Shown here in pieces: positions 37,601 through 47,289 of a stretch of 53,242 bases of DNA; the first letter of the stretch is position 1, and every line of letters begins with the position of its first letter. Source of the stretch: Escherichia phage CF2. Both the position numbers and the translations under genes were made by a program. The stretch lies in sequence record KY608966; one strand, given 5' to 3'. Below the pieces are notes generated by a model that was not told the origin of the DNA, did not search any database, and saw only the letters and a program-made list of their open reading frames with translations.

Positions 37601-38485
37601 TTATACGGCCATTTGGAGTTTGATGTTCGGCATTGGTTTGTACTTCTCAACCATTGGCGCAACATCGGCAGGAGTGAAGTCAAATACTGACACGTCGTAA
37701 ATCGCGTTAATGTCAGGACGGCCTTCAAAGTTAGTGTCCAGGGTAGAATCAGAATTGCTTACGATACGTTGCAGGAAAATCTTTGCCGCGTCGATATGAT
37801 TCTGATAGATGTGATAATCACCCAGCGTAACAGTCATGTCGCCAACACCAGTGCCCAGCTCAGCAGCAATGGTAATCTGCAACATCTGATGAAGCAGGAT
37901 GTCATGTGGCAGACCAAGGATAACGTCCGCACTACGCATATGGAACATCAGCTCTAATTCATTACGGTTGTTAATGAACAGCTGAAAACCATGGTAACAA
38001 GGCGGAAGGGCCATGGCGTCCATCTCTTGTGGGTTCCATGCCGTAATGTATGCCCGGCGGTCAGTAGGCTTAACCTTCAACGTTTCAATAACGTCTTTAA
38101 GCTGGTTAGTAAGAACACCATTCTTATAGAAAGGCTTAACCCATTGTACGCCGTATACAGGACCTAAGTCACGGTTGTCTGGTGTACCCCAACGTTTGTT
38201 TGCGTCTTGCAGGTTACCTTCCCACCAGTTGCAGCCAAAGCCTTTGAGCGTGTCGACGTTTGAAATGCCGTTTATAAAGCAATAGAGCTCAGCAGCAACA
38301 GCTTTGATGTTAACAGGTTTAAACACAGGCACCATCAGTTTGTTGTCGTTGAAAGCCAGCTTAAATGCTGTACCAAAACAACGGCGGGTACCAACACCTG
38401 TACGGTCTACAACATCCTCACCTTTACGCAGGATAAAAGAAATGATGTCGCTGTAAAGAGAATCGATAGTGCTGTATGTTTTCAT
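37601..38485 (-). CDS. Thymidylate-synthase-family pyrimidine C5 transferase with Asp at the substrate-specifying position
   Basis: DRTGVGT, DLGPVYGVQW, ALPPCYHGFQ and RSADVILGLPHD align to ThyA; LPFN of ThyA is LPHD here. Confidence 0.8.
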   Translation of the reverse strand: MKTYSTIDSLYSDIISFILRKGEDVVDRTGVGTRRCFGTAFKLAFNDNKLMVPVFKPVNIKAVAAELYCFINGISNVDTLKGFGCNWWEGNLQDANKRWGTPDNRDLGPVYGVQWVKPFYKNGVLTNQLKDVIETLKVKPTDRRAYITAWNPQEMDAMALPPCYHGFQLFINNRNELELMFHMRSADVILGLPHDILLHQMLQITIAAELGTGVGDMTVTLGDYHIYQNHIDAAKIFLQRIVSNSDSTLDTNFEGRPDINAIYDVSVFDFTPADVAPMVEKYKPMPNIKLQMAV

Positions 38486-39078
38486 TAAAACAGTTCCTTT
38501 TGAGCCGGGTTAACGTGTGCGTCGATGATTGCCTGGATGTCAGGTGCTTTCCATCCCTCAGGCTTAACAATATCCTGACCGGACTTATGCTTGCTGTTGC
38601 TTGCATCAGGCTTAGCGCGTTCTTTCGCCATGTTAGCAGCCTGTACCGCATCCCATGCTGCGTCAAGTGGCCAGTTGTTGTTTGCACACCAGGTAATCAG
38701 GTGGATAATTAACTGGGCCAGACGGTCGCAATGAGTGTCTTCAGTATCCTTAACGTATACAATAAGGCCATCAGCATCGAAACGGTCCATAAATCCGCAT
38801 GGCGTAGTTAACAGAATCGGATACTCAAATTCGTTGGTGAACCATGCGGTCTGGTCATACAGGTATAACGTACCTGCAGCAATGTAAATTAAATCTACAA
38901 TACCGTCTAAGAAGCCAGCTTTGTCGCCGTCCTTCTTAGCTTGTTTAATTTCTTCCATCTCCTCAATAAGACGGTCGTAACGAAGCTTGAACTCAGGTTT
39001 ACCGCCTTGACTAACAGGCTTGAGGTCAAACTTCTCATGAAAAGCGGTAACGCCTGCAGCAATTTTACTGAATCGCAT
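38485..39078 (-). CDS. MazG-like all-alpha NTP pyrophosphohydrolase (candidate dCTPase/dUTPase)
   Basis: LRYDRLIEEMEEI...DGIVDLIY resembles the MazG/HisE E..E..E...D motif; stop overlaps the downstream ATG. Confidence 0.6.
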   Translation of the reverse strand: MRFSKIAAGVTAFHEKFDLKPVSQGGKPEFKLRYDRLIEEMEEIKQAKKDGDKAGFLDGIVDLIYIAAGTLYLYDQTAWFTNEFEYPILLTTPCGFMDRFDADGLIVYVKDTEDTHCDRLAQLIIHLITWCANNNWPLDAAWDAVQAANMAKERAKPDASNSKHKSGQDIVKPEGWKAPDIQAIIDAHVNPAQKELF

Positions 39079-39463
39079 TTCGTAACTCCTTACAAACAGT
39101 TTCGATAAACTTACGTTTAATTTCTGTAGACCAGATAATATGACGAGCCTGTTCTAAAGTGTCCCAACGTTCTTTACCCACAGGAAAGGGAACAATGAAA
39201 AGGCCGGTACGGGATATGCGCTTGATAAACGGGAATTTACAGCGCATGGTTGTTTCAAACTTGATAAAGTTTGTTTGCACATCGCGTGTAAACTTGACCT
39301 TATCAAATTCATGTTCAAGAGTTTGAGCAATGTTGCATACTTCCTGGAAAGAAGATGCAGGCAAGTAATCTTCGCGGCCGACGGTGTTCACGTAGTCGAT
39401 TTGGCCTTCTAGCCGAAGTATCCAAATCCTGTAATAAGCTTCAGCAACACGTTGTAGGTTCAT
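39065..39463 (-). CDS. Hypothetical protein (132 aa)
   Basis: ORF track; SD AGAGGAGAGA upstream. Confidence 0.6.
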   Translation of the reverse strand: MNLQRVAEAYYRIWILRLEGQIDYVNTVGREDYLPASSFQEVCNIAQTLEHEFDKVKFTRDVQTNFIKFETTMRCKFPFIKRISRTGLFIVPFPVGKERWDTLEQARHIIWSTEIKRKFIETVCKELRNAIQ

Positions 39464-39489: not shown

Positions 39490-39518
39490 ATTATACCACA
39501 TCACTCTCTAGTGGTAAA
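39490..39518 (-). promoter_or_regulatory. sigma70-type promoter (TTTACC-N17-TATAAT), leftward
   Basis: Reverse complements at 39513-39518 and 39490-39495. Confidence 0.55.
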
Positions 39519-39534
39519 GCACTTTTTACGCTTC

Positions 39535-39575
39535 TGGTAAAAATAAAAAGGACCAGCGTTAACTGGTCCTTTTGG
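39535..39575 (-). terminator. Strong rho-independent terminator (functional mainly on minus strand)
   Basis: AGGACCAG-CGTTAA-CTGGTCCT hairpin with TTTTTATTTTT after it on the minus strand. Confidence 0.7.
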
Positions 39576-39579
39576 CAGG

Positions 39580-40140
39580 GTGGCGTAAGGAGATACAAGG
39601 CATCGTAACTATGCAACCAGGCAGCGCATATGAGATTGGCCAAAAGATTTACCATTTTAATCCCCGCGACGAGACGAAAAGGAGGTGTCATCTAGTAGCC
39701 AATCACATATGCGTTACTTGCTGTGTGCTCTCACCGCGGAAAGTATAGAGCGTTGCACTTATCACACCGATGGAGTGGCAAAAGCACACAGCAAGTACAA
39801 CCTTAGTTGTGGTGTCTTAGCACCTGAGTTATTGTGGATAACCTGCACCCGACGGGTGTCAAAAAGATACGCCAAAACACCACAACTAAAATTGTGACCG
39901 CCGTCTACACCAGGCGCCTGGGGTCAAGGTAGCGAGCCAATACCCTTTTCAGCGTCGGAGGAATCGAACCTCACACATCACGGCTTTTACCAAATCTCGG
40001 TCAGCGAGCAGAATTGAACTGCATTCACTGGACACCCTCACTGTTTCAACACACCAGGCTTAATTGATTGTTGATAAGAAGAGAGATGTAAGGATGTCCA
40101 TTGAATGCACCTCCGTAGAGGTGCGTTCAGATCAGCGCTA
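39580..40140 (-). other. ~560-nt structured non-coding region (candidate ncRNA, 3' UTR element or origin)
   Basis: No credible ORF; 15-bp inverted repeat 39715-39729/39783-39797; 13-bp inverted repeat 39803-39815/39877-39889; palindrome CCAGGCGCCTGG at 39910-39921. Confidence 0.3.
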
Positions 40141-40608
40141 TTATTCAGCAACTTCTTCGTTGTCGCCTTCGATCGCGCCAGCCAGTTTAGCAGCTTCAGC
40201 TTTAGCAGCTTCTGCTTTCTGGCGAGCTTTTTCAGCTTTCTCTTCAGCTTTGCGAATCTGCTCAGCAGCTTTCGCTTCGGCTTTTTCAGCTTTGATGCGA
40301 GCACGCTCTTCAGCTTTACGCTGTTTTTCAGCGGCTTTAGCAGCATCGCGTTCTGCTTTAGCGGTATCAACACGCTTAGCCAGAACTTTACCAGTGGCTT
40401 TACGCCAGTAGGTCAGCTGGGAAGAAACAGTACCACGGGACATTTCGGTAGTGGCAACAACTTCGTCCATAACGTCAGAGCTGGACTTGCCTTCTTCATG
40501 GGCTTTATCAGCCAGGTCCCATACGTAACGTGCGCCAGTACCAGCTGCCGGATACAGTACGCCGTTAACTTCTTCTTTACCAGTTACAAAAGTCAGTTTC
40601 TCACTCAT
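40141..40608 (-). CDS. Protein with Ala/Glu/Lys-repeat C-terminal tail (possible nucleic-acid-binding protein)
   Basis: ATG at 40608 with SD GAGGAA; C-terminus is KAEKAEAKAAE-type repeats; own promoter upstream. Confidence 0.7.
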   Translation of the reverse strand: MSEKLTFVTGKEEVNGVLYPAAGTGARYVWDLADKAHEEGKSSSDVMDEVVATTEMSRGTVSSQLTYWRKATGKVLAKRVDTAKAERDAAKAAEKQRKAEERARIKAEKAEAKAAEQIRKAEEKAEKARQKAEAAKAEAAKLAGAIEGDNEEVAE

Positions 40609-40656
40609 AATTTTTTCCTCGTCTACAGGGCTTAATGTTTGTTCGTTACGTGAGTT

Positions 40657-40685
40657 AATATACGTCATTTAAAAGAGTGTGTAAA
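40657..40685 (-). promoter_or_regulatory. sigma70-type promoter (TTTACA-N17-TATATT), leftward
   Basis: Reverse complements at 40680-40685 and 40657-40662. Confidence 0.5.
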
Positions 40686-40714
40686 CACCTTTTTTAAACT
40701 TTTTTCATTAGTGT

Positions 40715-40936
40715 CTAGAAAGGCACATCATAGTCAAAAAGTTTACATCCGGAAGACAGGACTGCCGGCGGTGGTGTTTTGCCTCCGGATAACAGGCAAC
40801 CTCCTGCCTGAAAACTACGGCAGTTTGCACAGCTCATATCCTGCAAGTATATAATAAGCTGTCGGCGAACATGCCGTGGTAAAGCTTTAGCCTGGGTTGC
40901 TACCCGTTCAAATAGTTCTCTGTCATCGAGCGCCAT
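40715..40936 (-). CDS. Hypothetical Cys-rich protein (73 aa)
   Basis: ORF track; overlaps helicase stop by 14 nt. Confidence 0.5.
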   Translation of the reverse strand: MALDDRELFERVATQAKALPRHVRRQLIIYLQDMSCANCRSFQAGGCLLSGGKTPPPAVLSSGCKLFDYDVPF

Positions 40937-44060: not shown

Positions 44061-44606
44061 TTATTCTTCCCAAGGAGCTGCTGCACCGTCATCAGCACCA
44101 GGTGCCGTTGCAGTAGCACTCGCCTTCGTTGAAGTACCCGCACCTGCACCTACTTTCTTCGTCGTCGATGCAGTTGCTTGAGAATGACCACCTACTGCAG
44201 TAGTTGCTTCAGTTGACGCTTTGTATTCGCGAATATCGTTCTGCGGGTCATACTCACCAGTCTTGTCAACACGAACACCGACTTTACCAGCTACGATACG
44301 GTTTTCCAGCAGATCAGTAGAAGTCAGTTCGACAATACCCAGTGCACGACACAGCGCAGACAGTTTGCGATGACCGATTTCAACAGCTTGTGCATTAGGG
44401 TTGGAGTAGGTAATCATGTCAAATACAACACGGTTAGCGAACTCACCTTCCTGCACTTTCAGACGCAGGGACAGGTAAGAACCAGTGCCTGCTTTAGTCG
44501 GCTTCAGCTCAACCTCTTCAATCATGAAGTTGTACCAGCCTTTCGGGATCGGGTCAAAAGACTGTTGCGGTTCGACGGTAGAGCTGTTGAAGTTTAATTC
44601 AGCCAT
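44061..44606 (-). CDS. Putative ssDNA-binding protein
   Basis: 181 aa; Gly/Ala/Thr-rich linker and acidic C-terminal tail (...DDGAAAPWEE); adjacent to Sak4-like ATPase. Confidence 0.45.
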   Translation of the reverse strand: MAELNFNSSTVEPQQSFDPIPKGWYNFMIEEVELKPTKAGTGSYLSLRLKVQEGEFANRVVFDMITYSNPNAQAVEIGHRKLSALCRALGIVELTSTDLLENRIVAGKVGVRVDKTGEYDPQNDIREYKASTEATTAVGGHSQATASTTKKVGAGAGTSTKASATATAPGADDGAAAPWEE

Positions 44607-46383: not shown

Positions 46384-47289
46384 TTACAGCAGTTCTGCTT
46401 TCAGGGCAGCGATACCATCAAGCAATGCTTTGATGTCCGGATTAGACGCTGCCAGGTCTGCAACAACAGACTGGCGACGACGTTCCAGCTCTTTCTCAAC
46501 TTCCAGGTCGAGGCGTGCTGACGCTTCACGCAGTAAGTCTTCAACCTGCTGACGACGCTGATACTTGTTAAAGTCAGGCACATCAACCAGCCATTTGAGA
46601 GTTGCAGTGTTGTAGCCAGAAGTATTGGCTGCACTTACAGACACAACATCAACAAGCTTGGTACCGTTAAGCTCCGGATAATTAACATTGCGAACGTCAA
46701 CAACAGCTTTGTCACCTACACTTACTTTGCCGATGTACTTGTAAGTGTACACACGACCATTCGGTTCAAACTTAACACCTACAAACTTCAGTTTGTCGTC
46801 AGCAATAACTTCTTCCTCAACTTTGAAGCTGATTGCAGTGTTCTTGACAGGTGCAGCCGCTTTGAGCTTAGCAACCATGTACTGTTCGGAATGAGACGGA
46901 CGGCACAGACGGAAGACGTCTTCATTGTAGGTCAGCCAGTTACCGGTCTCATCCACGCATGCAATCTGATTAGTGCCATCCAGTGAACGAACACCAGGGC
47001 GATTCTTCTCAACACGATACAGCTTACCTTCTTTCAGGTTAGCGTAAGAACGGCGAGCGATACCCCAGTTGTGTTTTTCAGATTCGTACTTAGCGAAACG
47101 ATCAACGCTGAAGTTCTGCTTCAGACCACGGTCGTCAATTACCCATAAGTTATCGTAAGCACCGCCGAAAGAACCCAGGTTGGCATACACTTTGCCCTGC
47201 GTCAACAGGGAAGTGTTTCCCTCGTCAACACAGATAACAAAACCCAGAGCTTCGTGTGCTTTACCGCTGCGGTCAAATACTGTAGTCAT
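46384..47289 (-). CDS. Hypothetical protein (301 aa)
   Basis: ORF track; SD AAGGAA upstream. Confidence 0.7.
   Translation of the reverse strand: MTTVFDRSGKAHEALGFVICVDEGNTSLLTQGKVYANLGSFGGAYDNLWVIDDRGLKQNFSVDRFAKYESEKHNWGIARRSYANLKEGKLYRVEKNRPGVRSLDGTNQIACVDETGNWLTYNEDVFRLCRPSHSEQYMVAKLKAAAPVKNTAISFKVEEEVIADDKLKFVGVKFEPNGRVYTYKYIGKVSVGDKAVVDVRNVNYPELNGTKLVDVVSVSAANTSGYNTATLKWLVDVPDFNKYQRRQQVEDLLREASARLDLEVEKELERRRQSVVADLAASNPDIKALLDGIAALKAELL

What the first reader, a model, noticed from the sequence alone, without database searches (positions are those of the whole stretch)
40141..40685. Independently promoted gene for a protein with an Ala/Glu/Lys-repeat tail
The ORF (start MSEKLTFVTG...) has a ~75-aa N-terminal domain followed by ~80 residues of KAEKAEAKAAE-type repeats ending in an acidic tip. 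A TTTACA-N17-TATATT promoter sits directly upstream. Such tails resemble histone-H1-like or KfrA/TolA-like extended domains, and the coding DNA is itself a GCAGCTTCAGCTTT-type repeat. It may be an abundant nucleic-acid-binding or nucleoid-remodelling protein; its position next to the structured non-coding locus suggests a functional pairing.
Basis: partly seen in the sequence, partly recalled or inferred. Interest (0 to 1): 0.5.

Follow-up and report, generated by a model that had tools for sequence, protein, structure and literature searches.

The report
Abundant phage winged-helix protein, charged tail
This is a real gene of a Salmonella/E. coli phage, predicted to be very highly expressed; it belongs to a large, unnamed, phage-only protein family (a small DNA-binding-like domain plus a long Ala/Glu/Lys helix) whose function nobody has tested.

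Summary
The window is a Rosemountvirus (Salmonella phage BP63-like) genome. The finding is real. It is a 155-aa minus-strand gene (40141-40608, = BP63 gp59) with a GAGGA ribosome site and a TTTACA-17-TATATT promoter. That promoter and an A-tract upstream of it are conserved in related genera.

The protein has net charge 0, so it is not histone-H1-like. Its resemblance to KfrA and TolA is compositional only. Its codon adaptation is the highest in the window, above the major head protein, and a homologue was detected by mass spectrometry, so "abundant" is supported.

The domain defines about 2,000 clusters and was found only in phages. It always lies after the replication helicase. In most lineages it sits directly upstream of the 7-deazaguanine DNA-modification operon.

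The neighbouring structured non-coding region occupies a slot that holds tRNA genes in a relative. The suggested functional pairing is not supported.

Best guess (about 40%): an abundant, non-sequence-specific DNA-associated accessory protein of the replication module.

The parts
40690..40708 (-). A-tract (UP-element-like) sequence ATGAAAAAAGTTTAAAAAA just upstream of the -35 hexamer
   Evidence: Read from sequence. Nearly invariant across window, ZCSE2, SE4, fHy-Eco03 and SOI901. The UP-element function is inferred.
40657..40685 (-). Sigma-70-type promoter TTTACA-N17-TATATT (-35 at 40685-40680, -10 at 40662-40657)
   Evidence: 10/12 matches. Annotated in the BP63 record. Conserved in relatives.
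40616..40620 (-). Shine-Dalgarno GAGGA, 7 nt before the ATG
   Evidence: Sequence. The same spacing is seen in ZCSE2 and SE4.
40141..40608 (-). CDS, 155 aa plus stop (= BP63 gp59, PHROG 28664)
   Evidence: CAI 0.75, the top of the window.
40369..40587 (-). N-terminal domain (residues 8-80): beta-hairpin plus three helices, winged-helix-like. Conserved residues P20, W30, D31, D34, Q64, W68, R69, G73.
   Evidence: AF2 pLDDT 92.6, pTM 0.80. Alignments A2 and A3. Family of 1,990 clusters.
40171..40365 (-). Long Ala/Glu/Lys(Arg) alpha-helix (residues 82-146), charge-balanced, with an Ala-rich heptad stripe
   Evidence: AF2 gives a single helix H82-146. Composition and charge. Salt-bridge and apolar-moment statistics. 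Composition is conserved but not sequence.
40144..40170 (-). Acidic C-terminal tip EGDNEEVAE (residues 147-155), predicted disordered
   Evidence: Acidic tips in most of the Rosemount-type subfamily, but not all.
40107..40124 (-). Perfect 7-bp hairpin (GCACCTC-loop-GAGGTGC) 17 nt after the stop codon, with no T-run
   Evidence: Sequence. Stem conserved in ZCSE2, SE4 and fHy-Eco03. Not called as a terminator.
39574..40106 (-). Highly structured non-coding stretch, probably transcribed as the gene's 3' extension. Contains T-arm-like motifs. Occupies the slot that holds tRNA genes in SOI901.
   Evidence: RNA fold z=-8.3. No Rfam or ARAGORN hit. SOI901 tRNA-Pro and tRNA-Gln in the same slot. Alignment A6. 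No minus-strand promoter inside it.
39546..39573 (-). Intrinsic terminator (12-bp stem plus T-run) that ends the transcription unit
   Evidence: Conserved in all five relatives aligned.

Best explanation
The gene encodes an abundant, early or middle-expressed accessory protein of the phage DNA-replication module. It is transcribed from its own strong sigma-70 promoter as a short unit that ends at the terminator at 39573-39546. The small N-terminal winged-helix-like domain (beta-hairpin plus three helices) is the functional head. I infer that it contacts DNA without sequence specificity, through the conserved helix 3 (SSQLTYWRKATGK) and, in most family members, a basic hairpin. The 65-residue charge-balanced Ala/Glu/Lys helix acts as a rigid spacer or weak self-association arm. 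The acidic tip may contact another replisome or host protein. The protein would then be used stoichiometrically on replicating phage DNA, comparable in role to phi29 p6, T4 MotB or SPO1 TF1.

Shown here: gene, promoter and terminator; the fold prediction; high codon adaptation; expression of a homologue; family size; phage-only distribution; conserved position after the helicase.

Inferred: DNA binding, lack of sequence specificity, and the roles of the tail and tip.
For: 1. Expression signals. Promoter 10/12 with a conserved A-tract, a GAGGA SD, and CAI 0.75, the highest of 46 window ORFs. It ranks above the major head protein (0.70), the DUF669/SSB (0.58) and the tail sheath (0.49). Both the N-domain (0.73) and the tail (0.77) are adapted. 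The homologue Seurat44 in an unrelated E. coli phage lineage also ranks first of 34 genes.

2. Protein detected. fHy-Eco03 Gp60 gave 6 peptides, 8 PSMs and 45% coverage, at the level of the SSB, helicase and polymerase in the same preparation (PMC8145870).

4. Charge. Across 164 distant members the domain has a mean net charge of +3.3, concentrated in the hairpin and helix 3.

5. Conservation pattern. Helix 3 is the best conserved segment across phages of very different hosts, which argues against diverse sequence-specific operators.

6. Context. The gene follows the SF2 helicase in the module AAA_24 - DUF669 - Cas4 exonuclease - helicase - X - nucleotide/modification cassette - clamp - PolA. 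This holds in every lineage examined, with a helicase upstream in 79 of 80 IMG/VR loci.

7. Domain architecture. The domain occurs one to three times per protein, also inside MuF/ADP-ribosyltransferase polyvalent proteins.

8. Tail association. An AEK-rich flank accompanies the domain on either side in about a third of members each.
Against: No direct evidence of DNA binding exists.

In the Rosemountvirus subfamily the basic hairpin residues are lost. The domain is slightly acidic overall: the first 48 columns sum to -6 and the rest to +4.

The whole protein has net charge 0, unlike classical nucleoid proteins.

Conserved synteny can reflect common descent of the module rather than function.

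The resulting ranking does place known abundant proteins at the top, which supports their use.
Confidence: 0.4

Rival explanations
1. It is a transcription factor: an activator or a sigma/RNAP-appropriating factor that switches host RNA polymerase to middle or late phage promoters. The wHTH would bind promoter DNA or RNAP, and the tail would make protein contacts.
Against: The labels have no traceable experimental basis. No Pfam or NCBIfam model matches. The recognition helix is the most conserved part across phages with unrelated genomes, which is atypical of promoter-specific factors. Top-of-genome codon adaptation fits a stoichiometric protein better than a regulator. No recurring motif linked to its own promoter was found in the window.
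Confidence: 0.2
2. It is a protein-binding adaptor or inhibitor. The hairpin-plus-three-helix domain would bind a peptide or protein, either a host factor or a phage replisome partner, by beta-augmentation as RRE/PqqD domains do. The helix would be a spacer.
Confidence: 0.15
3. It is functionally tied to DNA hypermodification. It could be an accessory that helps install base modifications on phage DNA, or one that coats and handles modified DNA: 7-deazaguanine in most lineages, an unidentified modification in Rosemount and Loughborough viruses.
For: In all 80 IMG/VR loci with enough downstream sequence, QueE starts about 0.3-1.0 kb after the domain start, followed by QueC/QueD/FolE/DpdA. In most isolates examined from Pseudomonas, Vibrio, Enterobacter, Acinetobacter, Rhizobium, Aminobacter and Microcystis phages, QueE is the next gene. 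In RHEph06, HD01 and Erebus several small ORFs intervene. fHy-Eco03 and S144 DNA resist most restriction enzymes (PMC8145870; PMC7432712).
Against: The window has no Que or DpdA genes yet keeps the protein, so it cannot be specific to 7-deazaguanine chemistry. The adjacency is explained equally well by modification cassettes inserting at an operon boundary: a terminator follows the gene in the window, L003 and Seurat. The papers on phage 7-deazaguanine pathways that I searched do not implicate such a protein.
Confidence: 0.12
4. It is a virion (internal head) protein packaged with the DNA.
For: fHy-Eco03 Gp60 was found in purified particles and is annotated 'putative structural protein'. The domain occurs in MuF-type head proteins.
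Against: The same preparation contained helicase, polymerase, thymidylate synthase, DHFR and SSB, so detection is not specific. Gp60 gave 8 PSMs against 53 for the capsid protein. The gene lies in the replication module under a sigma-70 promoter on the early strand, far from the structural genes.
Confidence: 0.05

Closest known systems
KfrA (IncP/IncU plasmid protein; Pfam KfrA_N PF11740 plus a long alpha-helical tail)
   Same: Both have a small N-terminal winged-helix-type head followed by a long Ala-rich alpha-helix, and both are encoded next to replication or maintenance genes.
   Different: There is no sequence match to KfrA_N for this protein. Only 1 of 48 family domains hits it, at E=0.037. 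The tail is about 65 aa rather than over 200. No homologues were found in 72,556 plasmids. This protein is found only in virulent phages.
Abundant phage-encoded DNA-architectural proteins: phi29 p6, T4 MotB, SPO1 TF1 (roles recalled from the literature; PMC4974454 and PMC7827196 were seen only as listed abstracts)
   Same: They are small, highly expressed early proteins that act stoichiometrically on phage or host DNA during replication and transcription. TF1 serves a phage with modified DNA.
   Different: The folds are unrelated (TF1 is HU-like; p6 and MotB differ). DNA binding by the present protein has not been shown.
TolA domain II and other Ala/Glu/Lys helices (ER/K-type single alpha-helices)
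   Same: Same composition and a predicted long solvent-exposed helix. Opposite-charge pairs at i+3 and i+4 are enriched: 22 against 14.6 expected, p=0.01.
   Different: The similarity is compositional only (TolA model 11 bits against cut-off 213). There is no membrane anchor and no TolA domain III. At 34% Ala with a heptad Ala stripe, a weak coiled coil is equally possible.
Homing-endonuclease-associated repeat (Pfam PF18780 HNH_repeat)
   Same: It is the only Pfam family hit recurrently by family members: 7 of 48 domains, best E 0.0012, and P0059 at 27.1 bits against cut-off 26. It is of similar size and likewise occurs as tandem copies.
   Different: The window protein itself does not hit it. 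The relationship is a lead, not established.
PqqD/RRE peptide-binding winged-helix domains
   Different: The scores are not significant. There is no RiPP context. Most family members are basic.

Membership tests
PHROG 28664 (phage protein family, function unknown) | Full-length match to the family profile | tested here: met
   E=6.5e-99, residues 2-156 against profile positions 1-155 of 155.
Histone H1-like / HC2 / AlgP-type bacterial nucleoproteins | Strongly basic Lys/Ala/Pro-rich tail | tested here: not met
   Tail net charge 0, whole protein 0. The tail is E 22.5% and K+R 25%, with no Pro. No HC2 hit for this protein.
KfrA | N-terminal KfrA_N (PF11740) DNA-binding domain | tested here: not met
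   No hit at E<=1. Only 1 of 48 family domains hits it, at E=0.037.
KfrA | Long alpha-helical Ala-rich tail | tested here: met
   AF2 gives a single helix at 82-146 with block pLDDT of about 76-93. The tail is 34% Ala.
KfrA | Plasmid maintenance or partition context | tested here: not met
   No homologue in 72,556 plasmids. The gene sits in a virulent-phage replication module.
TolA | Match to the TolA model, membrane anchor and C-terminal domain III | tested here: not met
   NF007065 at E=0.15, 11 bits against cut-off 213, covering the tail only.
Winged-helix / HTH DNA-binding fold (superfamily level) | Three-helix bundle with a beta hairpin, superposable on known wHTH domains | tested here: inconclusive
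Winged-helix / HTH DNA-binding fold (superfamily level) | Demonstrated DNA binding | not testable with these tools
   Only indirect support: basic charge of distant members.
Pfam PF18780 HNH_repeat | Score above the gathering threshold | tested here: not met
   No hit for the window protein. Distant member P0059 reaches 27.1 bits against cut-off 26. 7 of 48 domains hit it weakly.
ER/K single alpha-helix (SAH) | Dense i/i+4 opposite-charge pattern and absence of a hydrophobic seam | tested here: inconclusive
   Attractive i+3 and i+4 pairs are enriched (p=0.01), but an Ala/Ile/Leu heptad stripe is also significant (p 0.004-0.007).
Phage SSB-type proteins with an acidic C-terminal tip | OB-fold ssDNA-binding core | tested here: not met
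   The fold is hairpin plus three helices. The window's SSB candidate is the DUF669 protein at 44061-44606.

The most novel reading that the evidence does not exclude
The gene represents a large, unnamed protein family found only in phages: a ~70-aa hairpin-plus-three-helix domain joined to an Ala/Glu/Lys helix. It is the most codon-adapted gene of a widespread replication module. In almost all other lineages it sits immediately upstream of the 7-deazaguanine DNA-hypermodification operon, and Rosemount and Loughborough viruses also have modified DNA. It could therefore be a dedicated 'chromatin' or handling protein for hypermodified phage DNA, a functional analogue of SPO1 TF1. That would make it a previously unrecognised core component of how such phages replicate, transcribe or protect their DNA.
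Probability: 0.15. Interest if true: 0.75.

Novelty: new variant of a known kind. Interest (0 to 1): 0.5.

Why it matters
If the protein is an abundant DNA-associated factor, it would be a core and so far ignored component of a replication module. That module is shared by Rosemountvirus, Loughboroughvirus, Queuovirinae, Iggyvirus, Kleczkowskavirus and many uncultured phages, several of which are used or proposed for biocontrol and therapy.

The family has about 2,000 clusters at 50% identity and no Pfam model, and all its PHROGs are of unknown function. Naming and testing it would therefore remove a sizeable block of phage 'dark matter'.

Its fixed position next to DNA-modification cassettes makes a link between DNA hypermodification and a dedicated binding protein directly testable.

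Tried and rejected
1. Sequence-profile searches of the full protein against Pfam, NCBIfam and PDB gave only low-complexity tail matches: ATP-synt_B, adenylate kinase tail, PspA, TolA, FliF. I rejected these as compositional.

2. Profile searches of the N-domain against PDB (alignments A3 and A5) gave nothing below E=0.8.

3. Foldseek against AFDB50 was unavailable. Foldseek against PDB was not significant.

4. The second word-indexed homologue search, with the broad profile, returned only 12 unnamed proteins.

5. The genome-contig scan found no cellular homologue, but only one exact pattern (TQYARWRK) was used, so this is a weak negative. The first viral scan with A5 failed for lack of a conserved stretch.

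6. H1-like reading: rejected on charge.

7. MotA-box-like or shared promoter motif with the next operon: the pattern search gave 2 hits against 0.8 expected, which is not significant.

8. tRNA or known RNA in the downstream region: ARAGORN and Rfam were negative. Only poor tRNA-like calls appeared at a 75% threshold.

9. Literature searches for FtrA or 'transcriptional activator' in these phages and for 7-deazaguanine cluster neighbours found no characterisation of the family.

Full report
**Where we are.** The window is an almost complete Rosemountvirus genome. The 1.6 kb around the finding is 99% identical to Escherichia phage BEC1-17, Salmonella phage BP63 and about 40 other records. In BP63 the gene is gp59, 'hypothetical protein'. 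It lies on the leftward strand between the DEAD/DEAH helicase (plus a 73-aa ORF) and a block of MazG-like pyrophosphohydrolase, thymidylate synthase, clamp and DNA polymerase.

**The observation.**
The ATG is at 40608 and the TAA at 40141-40143, giving 155 aa that begin MSEKLTFVTG.
- GAGGA lies 7 nt upstream of the ATG.
- The mechanical ORF list gives a 175-aa version from 40668, and some records use it (P0001). That start lies inside the promoter and is not matched by homologues.
- The TTTACA-17-TATATT promoter is at 40685..40657.
- It is preceded by the A-tract ATGAAAAAAGTTTAAAAAAGGTG. This whole block is nearly invariant in Loughboroughvirus (ZCSE2, SE4), fHy-Eco03 and Erwinia phage SOI901, while flanking non-coding bases drift. 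That is phylogenetic-footprint support for a working promoter.
- On the minus strand no other promoter-like site was found before the strong terminator at 39573..39546. The transcript therefore probably carries about 570 nt of non-coding RNA after the gene.
- The 'repeat' is compositional rather than periodic. TRF finds 2.2 copies of a 15-mer, and only short imperfect direct repeats exist.

**The protein.**
- The last 71 residues are 34% Ala, 22.5% Glu, 17% Lys and 8.5% Arg. The net charge of the tail, of the N-terminal part and of the whole protein is 0. That removes the histone-H1-like reading.
- AlphaFold2 with 33 homologues gives pLDDT 85. It predicts a beta-hairpin (12-19), three helices (25-39, 43-53, 58-72), then one uninterrupted helix at 82-146 and a disordered acidic tip.
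- The N-domain modelled alone reaches pLDDT 92.6 and pTM 0.80.
- The tail has more i+3 and i+4 opposite-charge pairs than shuffles (22 against 14.6, p=0.01). It also has a significant heptad stripe of Ala/Ile/Leu (p 0.004-0.007). A single alpha-helix and a weak Ala-zipper coiled coil both remain possible.
- Among homologues of 50-70% identity, the N-domain keeps 64-71% identity. The tail keeps only 25-37% identity, but it keeps its length (66-93 aa), its A+E+K+R content (59-80%) and its mostly near-neutral charge.

**What the N-domain is.**
- No Pfam, NCBIfam or PDB sequence match exists beyond low-complexity tail noise.
- Foldseek against PDB is not significant; the top hit is the RRE protein TbiB1 at E=0.32.
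- BFVD returns only uncharacterised phage proteins.
- The fold class is therefore 'winged-helix-like', but no family can be assigned.
- The only Pfam model hit recurrently by relatives is PF18780, the homing-endonuclease-associated repeat: 7 of 48 domains, best E 0.0012, and P0059 at 27.1 bits against cut-off 26. This is a lead, not a membership.

**The family.**
- A profile of the N-domain searched against 1.84 billion representatives finds 1,990 proteins at E<=1e-3 and 627 at E<=1e-10.
- The consensus of distant members is EQNGV+RP+.GT..G+VW-IAD..S....PA.+.EV......G.N..T..TQYARWRKFHG..GR.
- None of 102 members has a Pfam domain covering this region.
- All PHROGs involved (28664, 18634, 11298, 21588, 17772) are of unknown function.
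- The domain occurs one to three times per protein.
- In 68 of 185 proteins it has an N-flank of at least 30 aa with at least 50% A+E+K. In 69 of 185 it has such a C-flank. The pairing of domain and AEK helix is therefore conserved irrespective of order.
- The domain is also embedded in MuF/ADP-ribosyltransferase polyvalent proteins (P0047, P0106).
- It is fused to a second unknown domain (phrog_7864, Seurat45-like) in P0071 and P0154.
- Distant domains are basic, +3.3 +/- 2.1, with the charge in the hairpin and helix 3. The Rosemount subfamily has lost the hairpin basics and is slightly acidic overall, keeping only the basic helix 3.
- No relative was confirmed in 185,579 species genomes, although only one exact pattern was scanned. 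None was found in 72,556 plasmids.
- The only hits in 5,426 complete E. coli genomes are two 53-kb 'plasmids' that are evidently Rosemountvirus genomes. The family was thus found only in phages.

**Expression level.**
With these the gene has CAI 0.75, the highest of 46 window ORFs.
- It is followed by the major head protein (0.70), the DUF669/SSB (0.58), an unknown 301-aa protein (0.545) and the tail sheath (0.49). The median is about 0.35.
- Both halves of the gene are adapted (0.73 and 0.77), so the result is not an artefact of the Ala/Glu/Lys codons.
- In the unrelated E. coli phage Seurat, the family member Seurat44 is likewise first of 34 genes. It sits in a terminator-bounded unit.
- In the Rosemountvirus fHy-Eco03, the homologue Gp60 was detected by LC-MS/MS with 6 peptides, 8 PSMs and 45% coverage. 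HHpred gave no hit for it (PMC8145870 Tables S2 and S6).
- That preparation also contained helicase, polymerase, thymidylate synthase, DHFR and SSB. The result proves expression, not virion membership.

**Genomic context.**
- In every lineage examined the gene follows the SF2 helicase of a conserved module: AAA_24 - DUF669 - Cas4-type exonuclease - helicase - (small ORFs) - this gene - nucleotide/modification cassette - clamp - PolA.
- The Iggy helicase is 39% identical to the window's, so the modules are orthologous.
- In 80 IMG/VR loci a helicase lies upstream in 79. Wherever there is enough downstream sequence, QueE starts about 0.3-1.0 kb after the domain start, followed by QueC/QueD/FolE/DpdA.
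- In most isolates QueE is the next gene. In RHEph06, HD01 and Erebus several small ORFs intervene.
- In the Rosemount, Loughborough and L003 subfamily that cassette is replaced by MazG plus thymidylate synthase. The window has no Que or DpdA genes.
- The DNA of fHy-Eco03 and S144 nevertheless resists most restriction enzymes, which indicates an unidentified modification (PMC8145870; PMC7432712).
- The adjacency may mean a functional link with modified DNA. It may equally mean that cassettes insert at the operon boundary after this gene: a terminator follows it in the window, L003 and Seurat.

**The neighbouring structured locus.**
- The 606 nt from the end of the gene through the terminator fold with z=-8.3 as RNA. 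They contain 15-25-bp inverted repeats.
- Rfam and ARAGORN find nothing.
- In Erwinia phage SOI901 the same slot carries tRNA-Pro and tRNA-Gln. In EC151 a tRNA-Ser follows the gene.
- The window and its relatives carry T-arm-like motifs there (GAGGTTCGATTCCTC, GCAGTTCAATTCTGC). Only very poor tRNA-like calls appear at a relaxed threshold.
- More distant phages that keep the gene have no such locus.
- The two features are probably co-transcribed, but nothing supports a specific protein-RNA partnership.

**Interpretation.**
- The best-supported reading is an abundant, early or middle-expressed, probably DNA-associated accessory protein of the replication module. It has a winged-helix-like head and a rigid charged helix (confidence about 0.4).
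- The rivals are a transcription factor (0.2), a protein-binding adaptor (0.15), a factor tied to DNA hypermodification (0.12) and a virion protein (0.05).
- Architecturally the closest known protein is KfrA. Functionally the closest analogues are phi29 p6, T4 MotB and SPO1 TF1. The protein is a member of none of these.

**Verdict.**
- Its interpretation is right about independent, high expression. It is plausible but unproven about nucleic-acid binding. It is wrong about H1-likeness. It is unsupported about pairing with the non-coding locus.
- The gene itself is already in databases as a hypothetical protein.
- What is new here is the size, phage-only distribution, top codon adaptation and fixed genomic position of its family.

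Noticed in passing
window 39574-40140 (minus strand): Very strongly structured non-coding RNA (z=-8.3), with long hairpins and T-arm-like motifs (GAGGTTCGATTCCTC, GCAGTTCAATTCTGC). The same slot holds tRNA-Pro and tRNA-Gln in Erwinia phage SOI901. It may be a decayed or tRNA-derived element carried in the 3' extension of the gene's mRNA. There is no Rfam or ARAGORN match.
   Followed up: partly
window 37601-39463 and the whole window: Published work shows that Rosemountvirus and Loughboroughvirus DNA resists most restriction enzymes (PMC8145870, PMC7432712). The window nevertheless has no Que or DpdA genes. The cassette at the position of the 7-deazaguanine operon is a 132-aa unknown ORF, a MazG-like pyrophosphohydrolase and a thymidylate-synthase homologue. 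These are candidates for the unknown modification pathway.
   Followed up: partly
window 40715-40936 (minus strand): A 73-aa Cys-containing ORF (CANC...C...C) between the helicase and the gene, overlapping the helicase stop. It matches PHROG 23504 (unknown function) and has no Pfam hit. Other lineages carry different small ORFs at this position.
   Followed up: partly
window 46384-47289 (minus strand): A 301-aa protein of unknown function (PHROG 33391) with the fourth-highest CAI (0.545). By position, a candidate counterpart is fHy-Eco03 Gp70, which gave 35 PSMs in the virion preparation; the homology was not checked. This looks like another abundant uncharacterised protein.
   Followed up: no
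L012 18811-19305 (Seurat45); P0071, P0154: The unknown protein encoded just upstream of the family member in Seurat (phrog_7864) is fused to the family domain in some metagenomic proteins. This is a Rosetta-stone hint that the two act together.
   Followed up: partly
P0047 (1363 aa), P0106 (932 aa): Two copies of the family domain lie inside MuF-type head proteins that are fused to ADP-ribosyltransferase and HExxH peptidase-like modules (polyvalent effector proteins). In P0047 the second copy is again followed by an Ala/Glu/Lys helix.
   Followed up: partly
RefSeq records NZ_CP067310.1 and NZ_JBVNBN010000003.1; GenBank PP583539.1: Two 53-kb 'plasmids' of complete E. coli assemblies are 99% identical to this phage gene and have the size of a phage genome, so they are probably co-assembled Rosemountvirus DNA. 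A record named 'Listeria phage 220426122051' is 99% identical to these enterobacterial phages, so its host label is doubtful.
   Followed up: no
window 39490-39573 (minus strand): A terminator (12-bp stem plus T-run) is immediately followed by an extended -10 promoter (TTTACC-17-TG-TATAAT). Both are almost invariant across Rosemountvirus, Loughboroughvirus, fHy-Eco03 and SOI901, marking a conserved operon boundary.
   Followed up: partly
window 40038-40635, both strands: Three long overlapping ORFs (111, 115 and 176 aa) inside the gene are by-products of the GCT/GAA/AAA low-complexity coding. Some related records also annotate small ORFs inside the non-coding region (e.g. ZCSE2 gp35, fHy-Eco03 g58 and g59) that have no homologues.
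   Followed up: no
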